Of a DNA stretch of 5,912 nt, positions 1,572-5,518 are shown one piece after another. Origin of the DNA: a virus (Duplodnaviria; Heunggongvirae; Uroviricota; Caudoviricetes); IMG/VR virus record IMGVR_UViG_2529292720_000008; one strand, 5' to 3'. Numbering within the stretch: the first letter of the stretch is position 1; each line of letters opens with the position of its first letter. Under the pieces are notes generated by a model. The model was not told where the DNA came from, made no database searches, and worked only from the letters and a program-made list of their open reading frames with translations. The position numbers and the translations under genes were made by a program.

Positions 1572-2047
1572 ATGAATACTGGATATTCTCCCGAACAAGG
1601 GCGGGGCTTCGTTCGTCCTGAAAAACAGAATCTGCAAAATTTTGCCGAAATTATTCCGGTTATTTCCGGCCTTACTGGCGGGAGTGAAACCAATATTGTT
1701 AACGCCAGAGCGTTGCAGATGTTTGATGATAAAAAGGGAGTAAATTTAACTTACACCCCTGACGGCAATCAGAATATGAGCATTATCTCTGAGTCAGGTT
1801 TCTACAAACTAATAAAAACAAAAAGCGCCCCGTTGCCGGAGCGCCTTTGTGAACAATTAACCTACTGCGCAAAAAATGAATCTGAGCAGTGGGATTATAT
1901 CAACCGTGTGGCGAAGCGCCACAATTGCCGGATAACAGGCAAAACAAAGGCCACCCGCTACGGTGGCCCCTCGACACAAGCTACACGTTATCCCCAACGC
2001 ATGAGCATCACCAACAATGCCACATTTGCGGCTGGTGGGCAATGTGA
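1572..2047 (+). other. Possible coding region of uncertain status (start of a 470-codon stop-free frame); may be a decayed gene or a frameshifted remnant
   Basis: ATG at 1572 opens a frame whose first ~120 codons look protein-like (including an SESGFYKLI segment that faintly recalls the E-x-G-L-Y-x-L-I core of Bro-N/antirepressor proteins, from memory). There is no in-frame stop until 2984, and the middle of the frame (2050-2580) is Ser/Cys/Arg-rich, antisense-like translation. No boundary can be supported. Confidence 0.2.
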
Positions 2048-2221
2048 TCAGTCAGATTTGGTTCGTTCCAAGGTTTGCAACGAGAGCTTTTTCCTGTGCT
2101 CTTTAAGGAATTTCTCAAGAGCAAAAGCACATGGCGCGAATCTTTCTGATTCATGCTCTATCTTTCTGCGCCGTCTTTTCCGTGCCGGTGATAATGTTTT
2201 GGTCAATTCTTTATCGGTCAT
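2048..2221 (-). CDS. Small basic hypothetical protein (57 aa from the second ATG; the track start at 2236 gives 62 aa)
   Basis: Minus-strand ORF with charged, protein-like composition (MTDKELTKTLSPARKRRRRKIEHESERF...), in contrast to the junk-like plus-frame translation over the same DNA. AGGA lies 7 nt upstream of the second ATG. It sits directly downstream of the leftward RHH-like gene. No family recognised. Confidence 0.25.
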   Translation of the reverse strand: MTDKELTKTLSPARKRRRRKIEHESERFAPCAFALEKFLKEHRKKLSLQTLERTKSD

Positions 2222-2278
2222 TGTGTTGTCCTGCATAGCAATGCGCCGTAATACCTTACACCACGGCGCTGGTGATGG

Positions 2279-2551
2279 TCACTCCTGCTCTTTGGCCTTG
2301 CGACGCTGGAGTTCTTCACGCGCGACGGTGATGAGTTGCCCGATCTCCTCGGCTGCTTTGACTCCGATTTTTTCCACCTGCGCCAGTGCATCGAGCGAAG
2401 AAACCAGGGGATTTTCTCCGCTTCCTTCTGCCTGGCGGCGGGCGATCTCACCGCGAACGGCTGTAATCACGAAAGCGGCTATTGTTTCCCCTTCCGTTTT
2501 CGAATTTTCCATTTCCTCGATTACATCATGGGGGAAGCGGATATTTTTCAT
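2279..2551 (-). CDS. Putative ribbon-helix-helix-like DNA-binding protein, candidate repressor of the divergent rightward operon (90 aa; alternative start at 2584 gives 101 aa)
   Basis: Minus-strand ORF whose N-terminus (MKNIRFPHDVIEEMENSKTEGETIAAFVITAVRGEIARRQ) fits a beta-strand / helix / turn / helix RHH layout, with a helical charged C-terminus. The overlapping plus-frame translation is low-complexity. It is transcribed away from the palindrome-rich region at 2585-2780. The fold call comes from pattern only. Confidence 0.45.
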   Translation of the reverse strand: MKNIRFPHDVIEEMENSKTEGETIAAFVITAVRGEIARRQAEGSGENPLVSSLDALAQVEKIGVKAAEEIGQLITVAREELQRRKAKEQE

Positions 2552-2605
2552 TTGCGATCTGCTGTTGATATTTCCTGTTGCCATCAGAATGTCCGGTTAT
2601 TTTGA

Positions 2606-2709
2606 GGTGTGCATACATTACACCAAAAGGTGTGTAAATAAAACACTTGACACTGTAGCGCACTTAAATTTAATCTGTACACACACCAATGATTGTGGTG
2701 TATGTACAG
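2606..2709. promoter_or_regulatory. Divergent control region: rightward sigma70-like promoter (-35 TTGACA 2647-2652, 16-bp spacer, -10 TTTAAT 2669-2674) flanked by two palindromes built from GGTGTG/CACACC half-sites
   Basis: Consensus -35 hexamer and a 5/6 -10 hexamer at correct spacing. Upstream inverted repeat ACACC-aaaa-GGTGT at 2620-2633. Downstream 14-bp-arm inverted repeat CTGTACACACACCA (2675-2688) / TGGTGTATGTACAG (2696-2709) with one mismatch, overlapping the predicted transcription start. Further GGTGTG copies at 2606 and 2629. Confidence 0.55.
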
Positions 2710-2780
2710 CAAAGCCCCGCAGTGCTGGAACACATGCAGGGCTTCTAACCACCAACGATAGCGAAAGTATCGAGGTAGCT

Positions 2781-2984
2781 ATGAGAAATTATACCAGACA
2801 CCCGCAAGGGCGGGACTCGTACAACCTGAATAAATACATCTGGCGTTTTATCGCCCTGAGCACGGCACAACCGCGCGTGATTACCATTGAGGCCACCAGC
2901 GAACAGGAAGCGCGTCAGCAATCTCCTGATGGCTGCGTGATGGTATTCGCTGCCCGTATTCGCCAGGGGGAACACCATGATTAA
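2781..2984 (+). CDS. Icd-like small protein (host cell division inhibitor Icd-like family, as commonly annotated in P4-like prophages), 67 aa
   Basis: ATG at 2781 preceded by GAGGT at 2772-2776. Translation MRNYTRHPQGRDSYNLNKYIWRFIALSTAQPRVITIEATSEQEARQQSPDGCVMVFAARIRQGE fits my recollection of the Icd-like pattern (W-x-F-x-A-x-S ... SE-x-EAR ... FAAR). First gene downstream of the promoter; the stop overlaps the next start. Confidence 0.55.
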   Translation: MRNYTRHPQGRDSYNLNKYIWRFIALSTAQPRVITIEATSEQEARQQSPDGCVMVFAARIRQGEHHD

Positions 2985-3605: not shown

Positions 3606-3905
3606 ATGAAACAGAAAAATTCTGGCTTTACTGCCAGTGGTCTCCCTCGGCCTGAAATCCGCCCCGGTGATATTTTCCGGGATAACTACGGTGGCACGGT
3701 AACGATTAAAAGCGTGGCGGGGCGGTGCGTTACTTACCGCCGTGATGGGTACGGCTATGACTGCGTGATGCCTGCTTATCAGTTCCGGCGTGATTTTTCA
3801 CTGATACAGGCCACACCACGCAAACAGCCCACCAGCAACGCAAAGGCACGGGCAAATATTCAGAAAATGAAAAACATGATTAACGCATTCAGGGGCAAAA
3901 AATGA
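3606..3905 (+). CDS. Uncharacterised small basic protein, 99 aa, translationally coupled to rep
   Basis: ATG at 3606 with GGAGT upstream; its stop overlaps the rep start (ATGA at 3902-3905). Gly/Arg/Tyr-rich core (GDIFRDNYGGTVTIKSVAGRCVTYRRDGYGYDCVMPAYQFRRDF) suggests a small beta-rich domain. No family recognised. Confidence 0.5.
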   Translation: MKQKNSGFTASGLPRPEIRPGDIFRDNYGGTVTIKSVAGRCVTYRRDGYGYDCVMPAYQFRRDFSLIQATPRKQPTSNAKARANIQKMKNMINAFRGKK

Positions 3906-5317
3906 AACTGGCACCGAACTTAAAAAAACAGCCACACGACAAAATGACCGAAGTCATTATTTTTGCGGGTAGTGATGCCTGGGCGCACGCGAAACAGTGG
4001 CAGGAACAGGACGGGCGACTTGCTGGTGATAACGTCCCGCCTGTATGGCTGGGAGACAGCCAGCTTGACGAACTGGCAGACCTGAAAATTATCGACGATG
4101 GTCGCTATTGTGTCCGGCTGTACAAGGCAGGCCACATCAAGCCGTCAAATATTAATGCTATCGGGCAAAAGCTGGCGGCGGCAGGTGTACGGGATGCGAA
4201 TTATTACCCTGATGGAATGCACAGCCAGAAGCTGGAGAACTGGCACGACTACCTGCAACGGATCCGCGAACAGGCAGAGCGCGGGGAAATACTTACTGAC
4301 GAGCAATACAGCCAGCGAAAAACCACGCTACCAATGAGCATTGGATCTGCAGGGTACGACACACAGCTTGATTATGTCGTTAAGGGCGTGATTCCGGCTA
4401 ATTCATTGTGCAGCACATACGGCGCGAGCGGTTCCTATAAATCGTTCCTCGCGTGTTCCTGGGCGTGTCATGTTGCCACTGGCCGTCACTGGGGAGGCCG
4501 CAGGGTGGCGCATGGTTCGGTGATGTATGTTGTCGGTGAAGGTGGCATTGGTGTCCCCCGCCGTATCAAGGCATGGGAAATCGTTAATGATGAACGGGTG
4601 GAAAATCTGTACCTGGTAAACCGCCCGATTTTTCCGGCAGTCCCGCTTGATGTTGATGAAATGGTCATCGCTTCCCGCCAGGTTGAACGGGAAACGGGTA
4701 AACCGGTACGCATGATTATTCTTGATACGCTGGCGCGTTGCTTTGGCGGTAATGATGAAAATGACGCGCGGGATATGGGGGCGTTTATCCGTGGATGTGA
4801 CGAACTGAAACGCCGCACAGGGGCCACGGTGCTGGTGGTTCACCATTCCGGCAAGGATGAAACAAAGGGGGCGCGTGGTTCCAGTGCATTTCGTGCATCT
4901 CTGGACGCTGAATACCGTATTCGCCGTGAAGGTGCAGACAGTGAAGCCCTGGTTATCTCCTGCACAAAAATGAAGGACGCGGAGGAACTGAAAGAGGCCG
5001 CATACGATTTACGTGTGGTGGAGCTTTTTACCGACACTGACGGGGAGTTAATCACGTCGCTGGTTGTTGTGGATAAGCCGCGCCCACCCGTTGAACTGGA
5101 GCGCATCGAGGAAGCCGGGAACAAGACGGAGAATCATGCCGCGCTATGGGGCTGTATCCGTTCACGCACACAGCGCGGAGATAAATGCACTATTCCGTTG
5201 TTGCGCGATGATATGAAAAAGCTGGGGTATGAGATGAAACACTTCCGGCGCTGGCTGTACAAGCTGGAAGGTGATGGCGTTATTGCTATTGACGGTGATG
5301 ACGTGCGCCCACTGTAA
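3902..5317 (+). CDS. rep: Replication protein: RepA-like / DnaB-like RecA-fold ATPase (AAA_25-type) with an uncharacterised N-terminal ~150-aa domain, 471 aa
   Basis: Walker A GASGSYKS at nt 4421-4444, Walker B-like hydrophobic stretch with Asp (RMIILDTLA, around nt 4709-4735), and the VLVVHHSGKDETKGARGSSA motif typical of RepA-like helicase/ATPase cores. Ends immediately upstream of an iteron cluster. The alternative start at the MTEV Met (nt 3944) cannot be excluded. Confidence 0.85.
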   Translation: MKLAPNLKKQPHDKMTEVIIFAGSDAWAHAKQWQEQDGRLAGDNVPPVWLGDSQLDELADLKIIDDGRYCVRLYKAGHIKPSNINAIGQKLAAAGVRDANYYPDGMHSQKLENWHDYLQRIREQAERGEILTDEQYSQRKTTLPMSIGSAGYDTQLDYVVKGVIPANSLCSTYGASGSYKSFLACSWACHVATGRHWGGRRVAHGSVMYVVGEGGIGVPRRIKAWEIVNDERVENLYLVNRPIFPAVPLDVDEMVIASRQVERETGKPVRMIILDTLARCFGGNDENDARDMGAFIRGCDELKRRTGATVLVVHHSGKDETKGARGSSAFRASLDAEYRIRREGADSEALVISCTKMKDAEELKEAAYDLRVVELFTDTDGELITSLVVVDKPRPPVELERIEEAGNKTENHAALWGCIRSRTQRGDKCTIPLLRDDMKKLGYEMKHFRRWLYKLEGDGVIAIDGDDVRPL

Positions 5318-5518
5318 AAAGTGGGTAGTAAAAGTGGGGAGTGTGGGGAATTTAACAAAATTGAAACGTGATTCCCCACTTTCCCACCTGTATATACCCC
5401 AAAAAGTGGGGAATAAAAAACACATTGAAAAACATCACGTTAGAATCACAAAAAAAAGAAGTGGGGAGACGTTGGGTAATTTCAAAAAGTGGGTAGTAAA
5501 AGTGGGGAGCAGTGAGGA
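5316..5518. repeat. Iteron cluster, putative origin of replication: at least 8 copies of AGTGGGGA-like 8-mers in both orientations, a 26-bp perfect direct repeat (5316-5341 and 5484-5509), and an A-rich tract
   Basis: Read directly: AAAAAGTGGGTAGTAAAAGTGGGGAG occurs twice. Additional GTGGGGA / TCCCCAC copies at 5334-5340, 5342-5349, 5373-5380 (inverted), 5381-5388 (inverted variant), 5405-5412 and 5461-5467. A-rich segment at 5411-5460. Position right after rep fits a rep-ori arrangement. Confidence 0.7.

What the first reader, a model, noticed from the sequence alone, without database searches (positions are those of the whole stretch)
2585..2780. Palindrome-rich divergent switch with a near-consensus promoter and a long hairpin at the transcript start
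A TTGACA-16 bp-TTTAAT promoter faces the rep operon. A 14-bp-arm inverted repeat (2675-2709, one mismatch) begins at the predicted +1, and a second ACACC-aaaa-GGTGT palindrome sits upstream of the -35. All are built from GGTGTG/CACACC half-sites. This looks like an operator array for a dimeric repressor, with the leftward RHH-like gene the obvious candidate. Alternatively the 5' leader hairpin could be RNA-based control, as in P4 immunity, where a small processed RNA acts on the leader transcript.
Basis: partly seen in the sequence, partly recalled or inferred. Interest (0 to 1): 0.6.

Follow-up and report, generated by a model that had tools for sequence, protein, structure and literature searches.

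The report
Satellite repressor switch plus antisense RNA
The palindromes are most likely the operator sites of a small ribbon-helix-helix repressor that guards the replication operon of an E. coli phage satellite, and right beside them lies a conserved, unannotated antisense small-RNA gene that covers the ribosome-binding site of the operon's first gene.

Summary
The window is the left part of a roughly 10-kb Gram-negative phage-inducible chromosomal island (PICI)-type satellite.

The leftward gene (2584..2279) encodes an Arc/Mnt-like ribbon-helix-helix (RHH) protein. Each variant of that protein comes with its own repeated palindromes around a conserved TTGAC-type -35. That pairing is the signature of a repressor/operator immunity module.

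The 14-bp inverted repeat behaves as a DNA operator, not as an RNA leader hairpin:
- its mismatches show no strand bias;
- in other immunity types the two arms flank the -10;
- the transcript should start inside the left arm.

The P4/P1-type processed-RNA idea fails, because the window has no C4/isrK match.

The region 2781->~2703 on the minus strand looks like a predicted ~78-nt cis-antisense sRNA gene:
- it has an extended -10 (TGgTATAAT, 2796..2788) inside icd codons 3-6;
- it forms two hairpins with compensatory changes and minus-only G-U pairs;
- it ends in a terminator-like stem.

It overlaps the start of Icd-like genes in 79/80 and 79/80 protein-selected loci.

All of this is computational; no transcript or DNA binding has been shown.

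The parts
2279..2584 (-). Gene for a 101-aa ribbon-helix-helix (YlcI/YnfO family) protein, the candidate repressor. It has an N-terminal arm and beta-strand (..RSQMKNIRFPHDV..), two helices, and a roughly 40-aa C-terminal extension that is absent in the 59-aa relatives.
   Evidence: NCBIfam NF041551, E 8e-18. A profile of relatives hits P22 Arc 1b28/1myl at E 0.002 over Arc residues 6-50, and also CopG, HicB and MazE RHH chains. hhalign versus Arc gives probability 61%, E 8e-5. Variation among relatives is concentrated in the arm and beta-strand.
2606..2617 (.). Operator half-site GGTGTGCATACA, next to the start of the repressor gene. It overlaps the tentative leftward -10 TAATGT (2618..2613 on the minus strand), so it is probably the autoregulatory site.
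   Evidence: It is one of the 3 GGTGTNNNNACA matches. An equivalent site next to a conserved minus-strand TATACT is present in most other class-A immunity types. The leftward promoter itself is only inferred.
2620..2640 (.). Palindrome ACACCaaaaGGTGT (2620-2633) together with a weaker half-site GGTGTGTAAATA (2629-2640), upstream of the -35.
   Evidence: Sequence; direct repeat D1. Kept in the window-type relatives.
2647..2676 (+). Rightward promoter of the icd/replication operon. The -35 is TTGACA (2647-2652). The -10 is either TTTAAT (2669-2674, 16-nt spacer) or, more likely, TAATCT (2671-2676, 18-nt spacer). The spacer holds a degenerate half-site CTGTAGCGCAC (2653-2663).
   Evidence: TTGAC(A/G) or TTGAA(G/A) sits at the equivalent place in the printed class-A immunity types and the printed class-B loci. 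The relative L008 has TTGACA-17-TATTAT (11 of 12) at that place. T-12, A-11 and T-7 of TAATCT are kept in 7 of 7 variants. Activity has not been shown.
2675..2709 (.). Main operator: two inverted half-sites (arms 2675-2688 and 2696-2709) whose centres are 21 bp apart. It covers about -7 to +28 of the rightward transcript.
   Evidence: One pair changes on both sides (C-G to T-A). Mismatches occur as U-G on the plus strand in L134 and L135, and as C-A on the plus strand in the window and L099, so there is no strand bias.
2703..2781 (-). Predicted cis-antisense small RNA of about 78 nt. SL1 spans 2781-2746, opposite the icd start codon, the Shine-Dalgarno sequence and the leader. SL2 spans 2745-2711 and is a G+C-rich terminator-like stem. 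The tail is UUUGCUGU.
   Evidence: The minus-strand fold is -58.1 kcal/mol (z -8.6) against -38.8 (z -3.9) for the plus strand. The minus strand is the more stable in 71 of 71 and 26 of 26 unique relatives. Nine SL2 pairs show compensatory changes, and 0 of 500 shuffles reach the observed covariation score. G-U pairs form only on the minus strand. Covariance model R1 finds it overlapping the icd-like ATG in 79/80 and 79/80 protein-selected loci. It scans as terminator-like.
2788..2796 (-). Extended -10 promoter TGgTATAAT of the antisense RNA, inside icd codons 3-6. There is no recognisable -35. The predicted start is near 2780-2782.
   Evidence: TGGTAT(G/A/T)AT is kept in about 99 of 103 unique gene starts. 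There is no synonymous variation in icd codons 3-11 and almost none up to codon 18, against abundant variation in codons 19-67.
2772..2984 (+). Shine-Dalgarno GAGG (2772-2775) and the 67-aa Icd-like gene (2781-2984). This is the first gene of the operon that ends in the RepA-type helicase (3902-5317).
   Evidence: NCBIfam NF033153, E 1e-19. Gene order and annotation.

Best explanation
The region is a two-layer control point for the early/replication operon of a Gram-negative PICI-type satellite.

Layer 1 (DNA and protein). The leftward gene makes an Arc/Mnt-like ribbon-helix-helix repressor. It binds GGTGT-N4-ACA half-sites in three places:
- on the inverted repeat that covers the start of the rightward transcript (2675-2709);
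- on weaker sites in and upstream of the promoter;
- on a site at its own promoter (2606-2617).
Binding shuts the rightward promoter and autoregulates the repressor. The operator sequence and the protein's DNA-reading strand differ together between satellites, which gives each one its own immunity specificity.

Layer 2 (RNA). A promoter embedded in the first codons of the icd-like gene fires leftward. It makes a two-hairpin RNA of about 78 nt that is perfectly complementary to the leader, Shine-Dalgarno sequence and start codon of icd, and that stops at SL2. Pairing blocks translation of the putative division inhibitor from leaky transcripts. It probably also lowers expression of the downstream replication genes through mRNA decay or polarity. 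The two convergent promoters, about 100 bp apart, could also interfere with each other.

What is shown and what is inferred. Shown here, all computationally: the sequence features, their conservation, covariation and strand asymmetry, and the protein/operator co-variation. Inferred: DNA binding, promoter activity, the existence of the RNA, and its effect.
For: Element identity: int, alpA, Icd-like, DUF4222, RepA helicase, ssb, capsid, decoration protein and terS, lying between abgR and smrA.

Repressor and operators:
- RHH assignment.
- At least 15 protein types, each with its own repeated palindrome flanking the -10 of a conserved TTGAC-type promoter. Examples: TGGTACGTACCA x2, GTGTTnAACAC x3, GTGTGTTTCA x3, GGTAATTACC x2.
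- Proteins with similar beta-strands have similar operators, e.g. LTTVRV and MTTVRI with GTGT(G/A)TTTCA.
- Half-site enrichment and rarity of the inverted repeat.

Antisense RNA:
- The block conserved in 1570 of 5426 complete E. coli genomes begins at about 2705-2712, which is the predicted 3' end of the RNA.
- Strand asymmetry of folding.
- Covariation.
- SL1 is rebuilt from different sequences in Klebsiella-type, Tenebrionibacter, O157 and O104 variants, and several of these place the anti-Shine-Dalgarno CCUC/CUCC in the loop.
- Conserved extended -10 and suppression of synonymous change.
- Terminator-like SL2.
- Invariable position and orientation at icd-like starts.
Against: - No transcript, start site, binding or reporter data exist, and none were found in the literature searches.
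- The rightward -10 is poor in the window.
- The antisense promoter has no -35, and in the window its terminator tail (UUUGCUGU) is weaker than in most relatives.
- The first 126 relatives were retrieved with a DNA pattern lying inside SL1, so invariance of those columns is partly ascertainment bias. The protein-selected sets correct for this.
- Mosaic recombination could contribute to the low synonymous variation at the 5' end of icd.
- The RHH match to Arc is weak (E 0.002; 61%).
- Published work on EcCICFT073 assigns induction to the activator AlpA and found no repressor (PMC6092414). How AlpA relates to this switch is unknown.
Confidence: 0.65

Rival explanations
1. The inverted repeat 2675-2709 is an RNA hairpin at the 5' end of the rightward transcript and acts in a P4 CI / P1 C4-type immunity, in which a small RNA processed from the leader pairs with downstream sites.
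For: The downstream gene is Icd-like, as in the P1 c4-icd-ant operon. C4, isrK and c4-a1b1 modules do occur in a related satellite (L008) and in some PICIs (PMC10111431). The plus strand can form the hairpin.
Against: - The window has no C4/isrK/a1b1 match even at E<=1.
- The predicted start lies inside the left arm.
- In other immunity types the arms straddle the -10.
- Mismatches show no strand bias.
- The plus-strand fold leaves the ribosome-binding site free and shows no long-range pairing.
Confidence: 0.05
2. There is no separate small RNA. The conserved block would instead be one of two things: a structured plus-strand leader of the icd mRNA, or the attenuated 5' leader of a long leftward mRNA for the repressor that starts at 2781, with SL2 acting as an attenuator.
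For: The block has the same orientation as the repressor gene. No strong leftward promoter is evident in the window. In class-B relatives the repressor ATG overlaps the rightward -35, so its promoter must lie further right. The window's SL2 tail is weak.
Against: - G-U pairs form only on the minus strand, and the fold asymmetry is present in 97 of 97 unique sequences, which excludes a plus-strand structure.
- In most relatives SL2 is a stem of 11-15 bp followed by 5-6 U.
- Homology between elements stops exactly after the tail.
- A conserved minus-strand TATACT next to the repressor gene is a separate candidate promoter.
Confidence: 0.15
3. The RHH protein is an antitoxin-type autoregulator of its own small operon (with the 62-aa ORF 2236..2048) and does not control the rightward operon.
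For: RHH antitoxins bind palindromes at their own promoters. A second small ORF follows in the window-type elements. The profile also touches HicB, MazE and Rv0623-like antitoxin families.
Against: The gene that follows the RHH gene varies or is absent (none in L005; a SWIM protein in L008 and L010). The strongest sites flank the -10/+1 of the rightward promoter, not the leftward one. The 62-aa ORF matches no family.
Confidence: 0.08
4. The inverted repeat 2709..2675 serves, in addition or instead, as a second intrinsic terminator for the antisense RNA, giving a three-hairpin RNA of about 107 nt.
For: The scan lists it as terminator-like on the minus strand, with a 14-bp stem and the tail ATTAAATTTA. 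On the minus strand the window's mismatch becomes a G-U pair. The window's SL2 tail is weak.
Against: Two of seven variants have A-C mismatches on the minus strand (L134, L135). The tail is simply the A+T-rich -10 region of the rightward promoter. Most other immunity types have no such hairpin.
Confidence: 0.12

Closest known systems
Phage P22 immI region (Mnt and Arc RHH repressors, Pant/Pmnt operators, sar antisense RNA)
   Same: Small RHH repressors act on palindromic operators at divergent promoters. A short cis-antisense RNA, whose promoter sits at the start of the regulated gene, covers that gene's ribosome-binding site; a review notes that sar RNA inhibits anti-repression (PMC5415839). 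The finer P22 details are from my own knowledge. The family profile aligns with Arc. The 101-aa form, with its C-terminal extension, resembles Mnt's two-domain layout (inference).
   Different: The regulated operon is icd plus replication genes of a satellite, not an antirepressor. There is no Rfam sar match. Sequence similarity to Arc is marginal. The operators are arranged differently.
SymR/SymE of E. coli (Rfam RF01809)
   Same: [quoted passage not shown] It has a two-hairpin layout and a similar apical GUGUU..GCAC stem. The only Rfam matches to the RNA studied here are to symR: 25.4 bits in the window and 36.1 bits in L004.
   Different: Both scores are far below the gathering score of 61. 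The model built from the satellite RNAs does not find K-12 symR. The target is an Icd-like protein, not the AbrB-fold SymE. The context is a satellite rather than the hsd/mcr region.
P1/P7 immI (c4 RNA-icd-ant) and P4 CI RNA immunity (Rfam C4 RF01695, isrK, c4-a1b1)
   Same: An RNA antagonist sits immediately upstream of an Icd-type gene at the head of an operon that must stay silent. [quoted passage not shown] P4 CI acts on seqA (PMC10111431).
   Different: Those RNAs are cut from the same strand as the leader and pair with separate target sites. Here the RNA is predicted to be transcribed from the opposite strand and to be fully complementary. The window has no C4/isrK match.
Gram-negative PICIs such as EcCICFT073
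   Same: The same element type and gene order: int, alpA, replication genes, capsid and terS (PMC6092414).
   Different: [quoted passage not shown] Neither the divergent RHH gene with its operators nor the antisense RNA is described in the papers found.

Membership tests
Ribbon-helix-helix (Arc/MetJ-type) repressor with operators | N-terminal beta-strand followed by two helices (RHH fold) | tested here: met
   NCBIfam YlcI_YnfO_N. The profile hits Arc over residues 6-50 at E 0.002, plus CopG, HicB and MazE RHH chains. Individual members hit Pfam Arc, RHH_1 and HicB. hhalign gives 61%. This is sequence-level and weak; no structure was predicted.
Ribbon-helix-helix (Arc/MetJ-type) repressor with operators | Repeated or palindromic sites overlapping the regulated promoter | tested here: met
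   for the window. Relatives have equivalent sites flanking the -10.
Ribbon-helix-helix (Arc/MetJ-type) repressor with operators | Specificity residues and operator sequence change together | tested here: met
   At least 15 protein types, each with its own site. The variation lies in the arm and beta-strand. The comparison is qualitative and carries no statistic.
Ribbon-helix-helix (Arc/MetJ-type) repressor with operators | Binding and repression demonstrated | not testable with these tools
   Needs gel shift, footprinting or reporter assays.
Cis-encoded antisense sRNA (SymR / sar / Sok kind) | Own promoter on the strand opposite the target's 5' end | tested here: met
   TGgTATAAT at 2796..2788, conserved in about 99 of 103 unique gene starts, with suppressed synonymous change. 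This is a prediction only.
Cis-encoded antisense sRNA (SymR / sar / Sok kind) | Conserved structure specific to that strand, ending in a terminator | tested here: met
Cis-encoded antisense sRNA (SymR / sar / Sok kind) | RNA detected and shown to repress the target | not testable with these tools
   No expression data are available. Literature searches found none.
SymR family (RF01809) | Score at or above Rfam's gathering score, and reciprocal detection | tested here: not met
   25.4 and 36.1 bits against a gathering score of 61. Model R1 finds nothing in the K-12 symER locus at E<=10.
C4 / CI / isrK processed immunity RNAs (RF01695, RF01394, RF03163) | Match to the covariance model upstream of icd, on the same strand | tested here: not met
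   No match at E<=1 in the window. The positive control L008 gives 75.4 and 74 bits.
C4 / CI / isrK processed immunity RNAs (RF01695, RF01394, RF03163) | Leader loops complementary to separate downstream target sites at the ribosome-binding site | tested here: inconclusive
   The plus-strand minimum-energy fold shows only local hairpins and a free ribosome-binding site. No dedicated search for intermolecular pairing was run.
Gram-negative PICI | int and alpA co-oriented, a replication module, and a few packaging genes in an island of about 10 kb | tested here: met
   Annotation of the identical locus in NZ_CP024240; Pfam matches.

The most novel reading that the evidence does not exclude
Gram-negative PICIs would possess the 'missing' immunity system. 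It would consist of a hypervariable RHH master repressor plus a widespread family of cis-antisense sRNAs that is absent from Rfam. The sRNA and the Icd-like gene would form an obligate toxin/antidote-like pair. The hypervariable SL1 loop (16 heptamer variants on an invariant stem) and SL2 (33 variants) would give each satellite a private RNA specificity, so that co-resident satellites (up to 6 copies per genome) do not silence each other.
Probability: 0.3. Interest if true: 0.7.

Novelty: new member of a known kind. Interest (0 to 1): 0.55.

Why it matters
The founding paper on Gram-negative PICIs says it is unclear whether these islands have a global repressor, and it explains induction only through the activator AlpA (PMC6092414). 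A conserved divergent RHH gene with type-specific operators at the head of the replication operon is a concrete candidate that can be tested directly.

The antisense RNA block is present in about 29% of complete E. coli genomes (1570 of 5426). It is not annotated and not in Rfam, and it always overlaps the start of Icd-like genes. It would be a new sRNA family, and it would account for how a putative division inhibitor is kept silent.

The work also exposes an annotation error: PGAP fuses a 470-aa read-through ORF and so hides the repressor gene.

Tried and rejected
- Rfam scan of the window at E<=1: only a sub-threshold symR match, and no C4, isrK or sar.
- SymR homology: rejected, because the reciprocal search of the K-12 symER locus with my own model found nothing.
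- Plus-strand leader structure: rejected on fold energies and on the G-U versus C-A pattern.
- Inverted repeat as an RNA hairpin: rejected on the lack of strand bias and on its position relative to the -10.
- Phage collection: blastn and tblastn found only one unrelated-looking induced prophage record.
- Genome-contig scan with the single Icd-like protein: only 3 loci.
- Literature searches for Icd-like plus satellite, PICI plus antisense RNA, YlcI/YnfO/DUF3950, and the RNA's sequence strings: nothing relevant.
- PMC196329 (P1 c4-icd-ant) is not held in the library.
- Pfam on the 1572 ORF, the 62-aa ORF and the small rightward ORFs: no families.
- Alternative -10 inside the loop of the inverted repeat: rejected by inspection, because no usable -35 lies upstream.
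- Not done: structure prediction of the RHH protein.

Full report
CONTEXT

The window is 100% identical to a stretch of E. coli O114:H49 strain 90-9280. There it forms the left part of an island of about 10 kb lying between abgR and smrA. The island's gene order is:
- integrase
- AlpA
- a leftward small-gene pair
- Icd-like gene
- three small ORFs
- DUF4222
- RepA/AAA_25 helicase
- iterons
- ssb
- major capsid protein
- decoration protein
- terS

Pfam and NCBIfam agree with these assignments. This is the gene organisation of Gram-negative phage-inducible chromosomal islands (PICIs) (PMC6092414). The finding covers exactly the intergenic region between the leftward gene (2584..2279) and the Icd-like gene (2781-2984).

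OBSERVATION

All the sequence features are present at the stated coordinates.
- An inverted repeat with 14-nt arms, at most one mismatch and a 3-12 nt loop occurred in only 2 of 300 first-order resamples of the window.
- The 12-mer GGTGTNNNNACA occurs three times (2606, 2676 on the minus strand, 2697) and nowhere else in 5.9 kb. The expectation is 0.2.

- TTTAAT lacks the A at position 2, and the consensus scan skipped it.
- Among seven variants of the same operator type, TTTAAT drifts to TCTAAT or TTTAAG. The overlapping TAATCT keeps T-12, A-11 and T-7 throughout.
- With either hexamer the transcript should start near 2680-2683, inside the left arm of the repeat. The full 14-bp hairpin would therefore not be present in the RNA.

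WHAT THE PALINDROMES ARE

I collected about 370 related loci from four sources:
- E. coli genomes;
- IMG/VR, using a DNA pattern;
- IMG/VR, using three Icd-like proteins;
- GTDB genomes.

The region upstream of about 2705 is not conserved between elements, but its architecture is. Each element has a TTGAC(A/G) or TTGAA(G/A) -35, then one copy of an element-specific motif in the spacer, then an A+T-rich -10, then a second copy, usually inverted. A third copy often lies next to the leftward gene. In relative L008 the promoter is TTGACA-17-TATTAT, 11 of 12.

The leftward gene falls into two classes, YlcI/YnfO and a shorter Arc-like class. Both show the beta-strand/helix/helix pattern.
- A profile of both classes aligns with P22 Arc across its whole domain (E 0.002) and touches other RHH chains.
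- hhalign gives 61% probability.
- Single members hit Pfam Arc, RHH_1 and HicB.

Variation among the proteins is concentrated in the N-terminal arm and the beta-strand, whereas the helices are nearly constant. In RHH proteins this strand reads the DNA (established knowledge of Arc/MetJ-type proteins). Each protein type has its own operator motif, and near-identical strands have near-identical motifs.

Within the window's own type, the inverted repeat shows one pair changed on both sides. Its mismatches are U-G on the plus strand in two variants and C-A on the plus strand in two others. The absence of strand bias fits a DNA site and does not fit an RNA stem. The arm centres are 21 bp apart, so the two half-sites face the same side of the helix.

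THE RNA LAYER

In 1570 of 5426 complete E. coli genomes a conserved block begins at about 2705-2712 and runs into icd. Five lines of evidence bear on it.

1. Folding is strand-asymmetric.
   - In the window the minus strand reaches -58.1 kcal/mol (z -8.6), against -38.8 (z -3.9) for the plus strand.
   - Across 71 unique sequences of the pattern-retrieved set the minus strand is always the more stable, with means of -36.6 and -22.4.
   - The same holds for 26 of 26 divergent sequences chosen through the protein, with means of -35.3 and -23.4.
   - The cause is G-U pairs, which become C-A mismatches on the plus strand.

2. The structure covaries. It has two hairpins.
   - SL2 has 33 sequence variants, and 9 of its pairs show compensatory changes. 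The covariation score exceeds all 500 shuffles and all slid controls.
   - In most relatives SL2 is followed by a U run, and it scans as an intrinsic terminator. In the window the tail is weaker.
   - SL1 is invariant in the main E. coli type. This is partly an ascertainment effect of the retrieval pattern.
   - In Klebsiella-type, Tenebrionibacter, O157 and O104:H4 variants SL1 is rebuilt from different sequences. Several of these put the anti-Shine-Dalgarno CCUC/CUCC in the loop.
   - The SL1 heptaloop has 16 variants on an invariant 5-bp stem.

3. A promoter sits at the right distance upstream. It is an extended -10, TGgTATAAT (2796..2788), lying in icd codons 3-6.
   - TGGTAT(G/A/T)AT is kept in about 99 of 103 unique gene starts. 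Amino-acid changes fall on the non-critical promoter positions.
   - Synonymous variation is absent in codons 3-11 and nearly absent up to codon 18, but plentiful in codons 19-67.

4. The association with icd-like genes is tight. A covariance model built from the alignment finds the element on the minus strand, overlapping the icd-like ATG, in 79/80 and 79/80 protein-selected loci. One unmatched locus has no upstream DNA (L351); the other, L262, was not examined. Seven loci carry a second hit about 750 nt upstream of the first.

5. It is not a known family.
   - Rfam gives only sub-threshold symR matches.
   - My model does not find K-12 symR.
   - C4 and isrK are absent from the window but present downstream in L008.

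MECHANISM

Shown computationally: two convergent promoters about 100 bp apart, operators over the rightward one, and a structured antisense RNA gene over the ribosome-binding site of the first gene.

Inferred:
- The RHH protein represses the rightward promoter and autoregulates its own.
- The constitutive antisense RNA neutralises leaky icd transcripts by occluding the Shine-Dalgarno sequence and the AUG. It would reduce downstream replication genes through decay or polarity, as SymR does for symE (PMC1891008) and c4 does for ant (PMC8546580).
- On induction, strong rightward transcription would outrun the RNA and might also interfere with its promoter.

How helper phage or AlpA flips the switch is unknown. 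One speculative route is read-through from alpA across the antisense of the repressor gene.

COMPARISON WITH KNOWN SYSTEMS

In logic the region is closest to P22 immI (RHH repressors plus sar RNA) and to SymR/SymE. It is not a member of the SymR or C4 RNA families. The papers found on Gram-negative PICIs describe neither component.

VERDICT

- The operator/RHH interpretation is supported.
- The leader-hairpin/P4 interpretation is rejected.
- A conserved cis-antisense sRNA gene is added to the picture.
- It is a new member of known kinds, and of moderate interest because it makes the question of a repressor in Gram-negative PICIs testable.

Noticed in passing
window 1572-2984 (+): A 470-aa ORF stays open across the antisense of both leftward genes and across the intergenic switch, in frame with icd. 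PGAP annotates it as 'Icd-like protein' in the source genome, so the YlcI/YnfO gene goes unannotated there. Similar N-terminally extended or pseudo 'Icd-like' calls occur in relatives.
   Followed up: partly
window 5316-5508: Six to seven copies of AAAAGTGGGGA (some inverted) lie just after the RepA-type helicase gene. They are probably the iterons of the satellite's replication origin.
   Followed up: partly
window 1821-1848 and 1946-1971 (minus strand): Two strong intrinsic-terminator-like hairpins end the leftward unit, which consists of the RHH gene plus a 62-aa ORF at 2236..2048 that matches no family.
   Followed up: no
L008 1684-2347: A related satellite carries isrK, two C4 RNAs and a c4-a1b1 target module with further Icd-like genes, downstream of the antisense-RNA block. 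Both kinds of RNA control can therefore coexist in one element.
   Followed up: partly
L002 75-143; L004 264-329: The Rfam int-alpA RNA motif (RF02996) is present between int and alpA in two distant relatives, but it is not detected in the window's int-alpA spacer (964-1330).
   Followed up: no
L327, L341, L350, L354, L362, L372, L374 (~250-510): A second hit to the antisense-RNA model lies about 750 nt upstream of the first. Tandem icd/antisense modules are one reading; whether an icd-like gene follows the upstream hit was not checked.
   Followed up: no
window 2802-2815: A G+C-rich hairpin, CCCGCAAGGGCGGG, lies in icd codons 8-12 and is essentially invariant, including at synonymous sites. 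It sits just upstream of the antisense promoter on the minus strand. Its role is unknown.
   Followed up: no
L016 and L031 (same isolate, IMG 2541047882): Two satellites in one genome differ in operator motif, in SL2 and in the SL1 loop. This is anecdotal support for private specificities. Another pair, L034/L039, is identical.
   Followed up: partly
L008, L010 and other class-B loci: In class-B elements the ATG of the RHH gene overlaps the rightward -35 (TTGACAT). The leftward promoter must therefore lie inside the rightward promoter or leader, giving overlapping face-to-face promoters.
   Followed up: no
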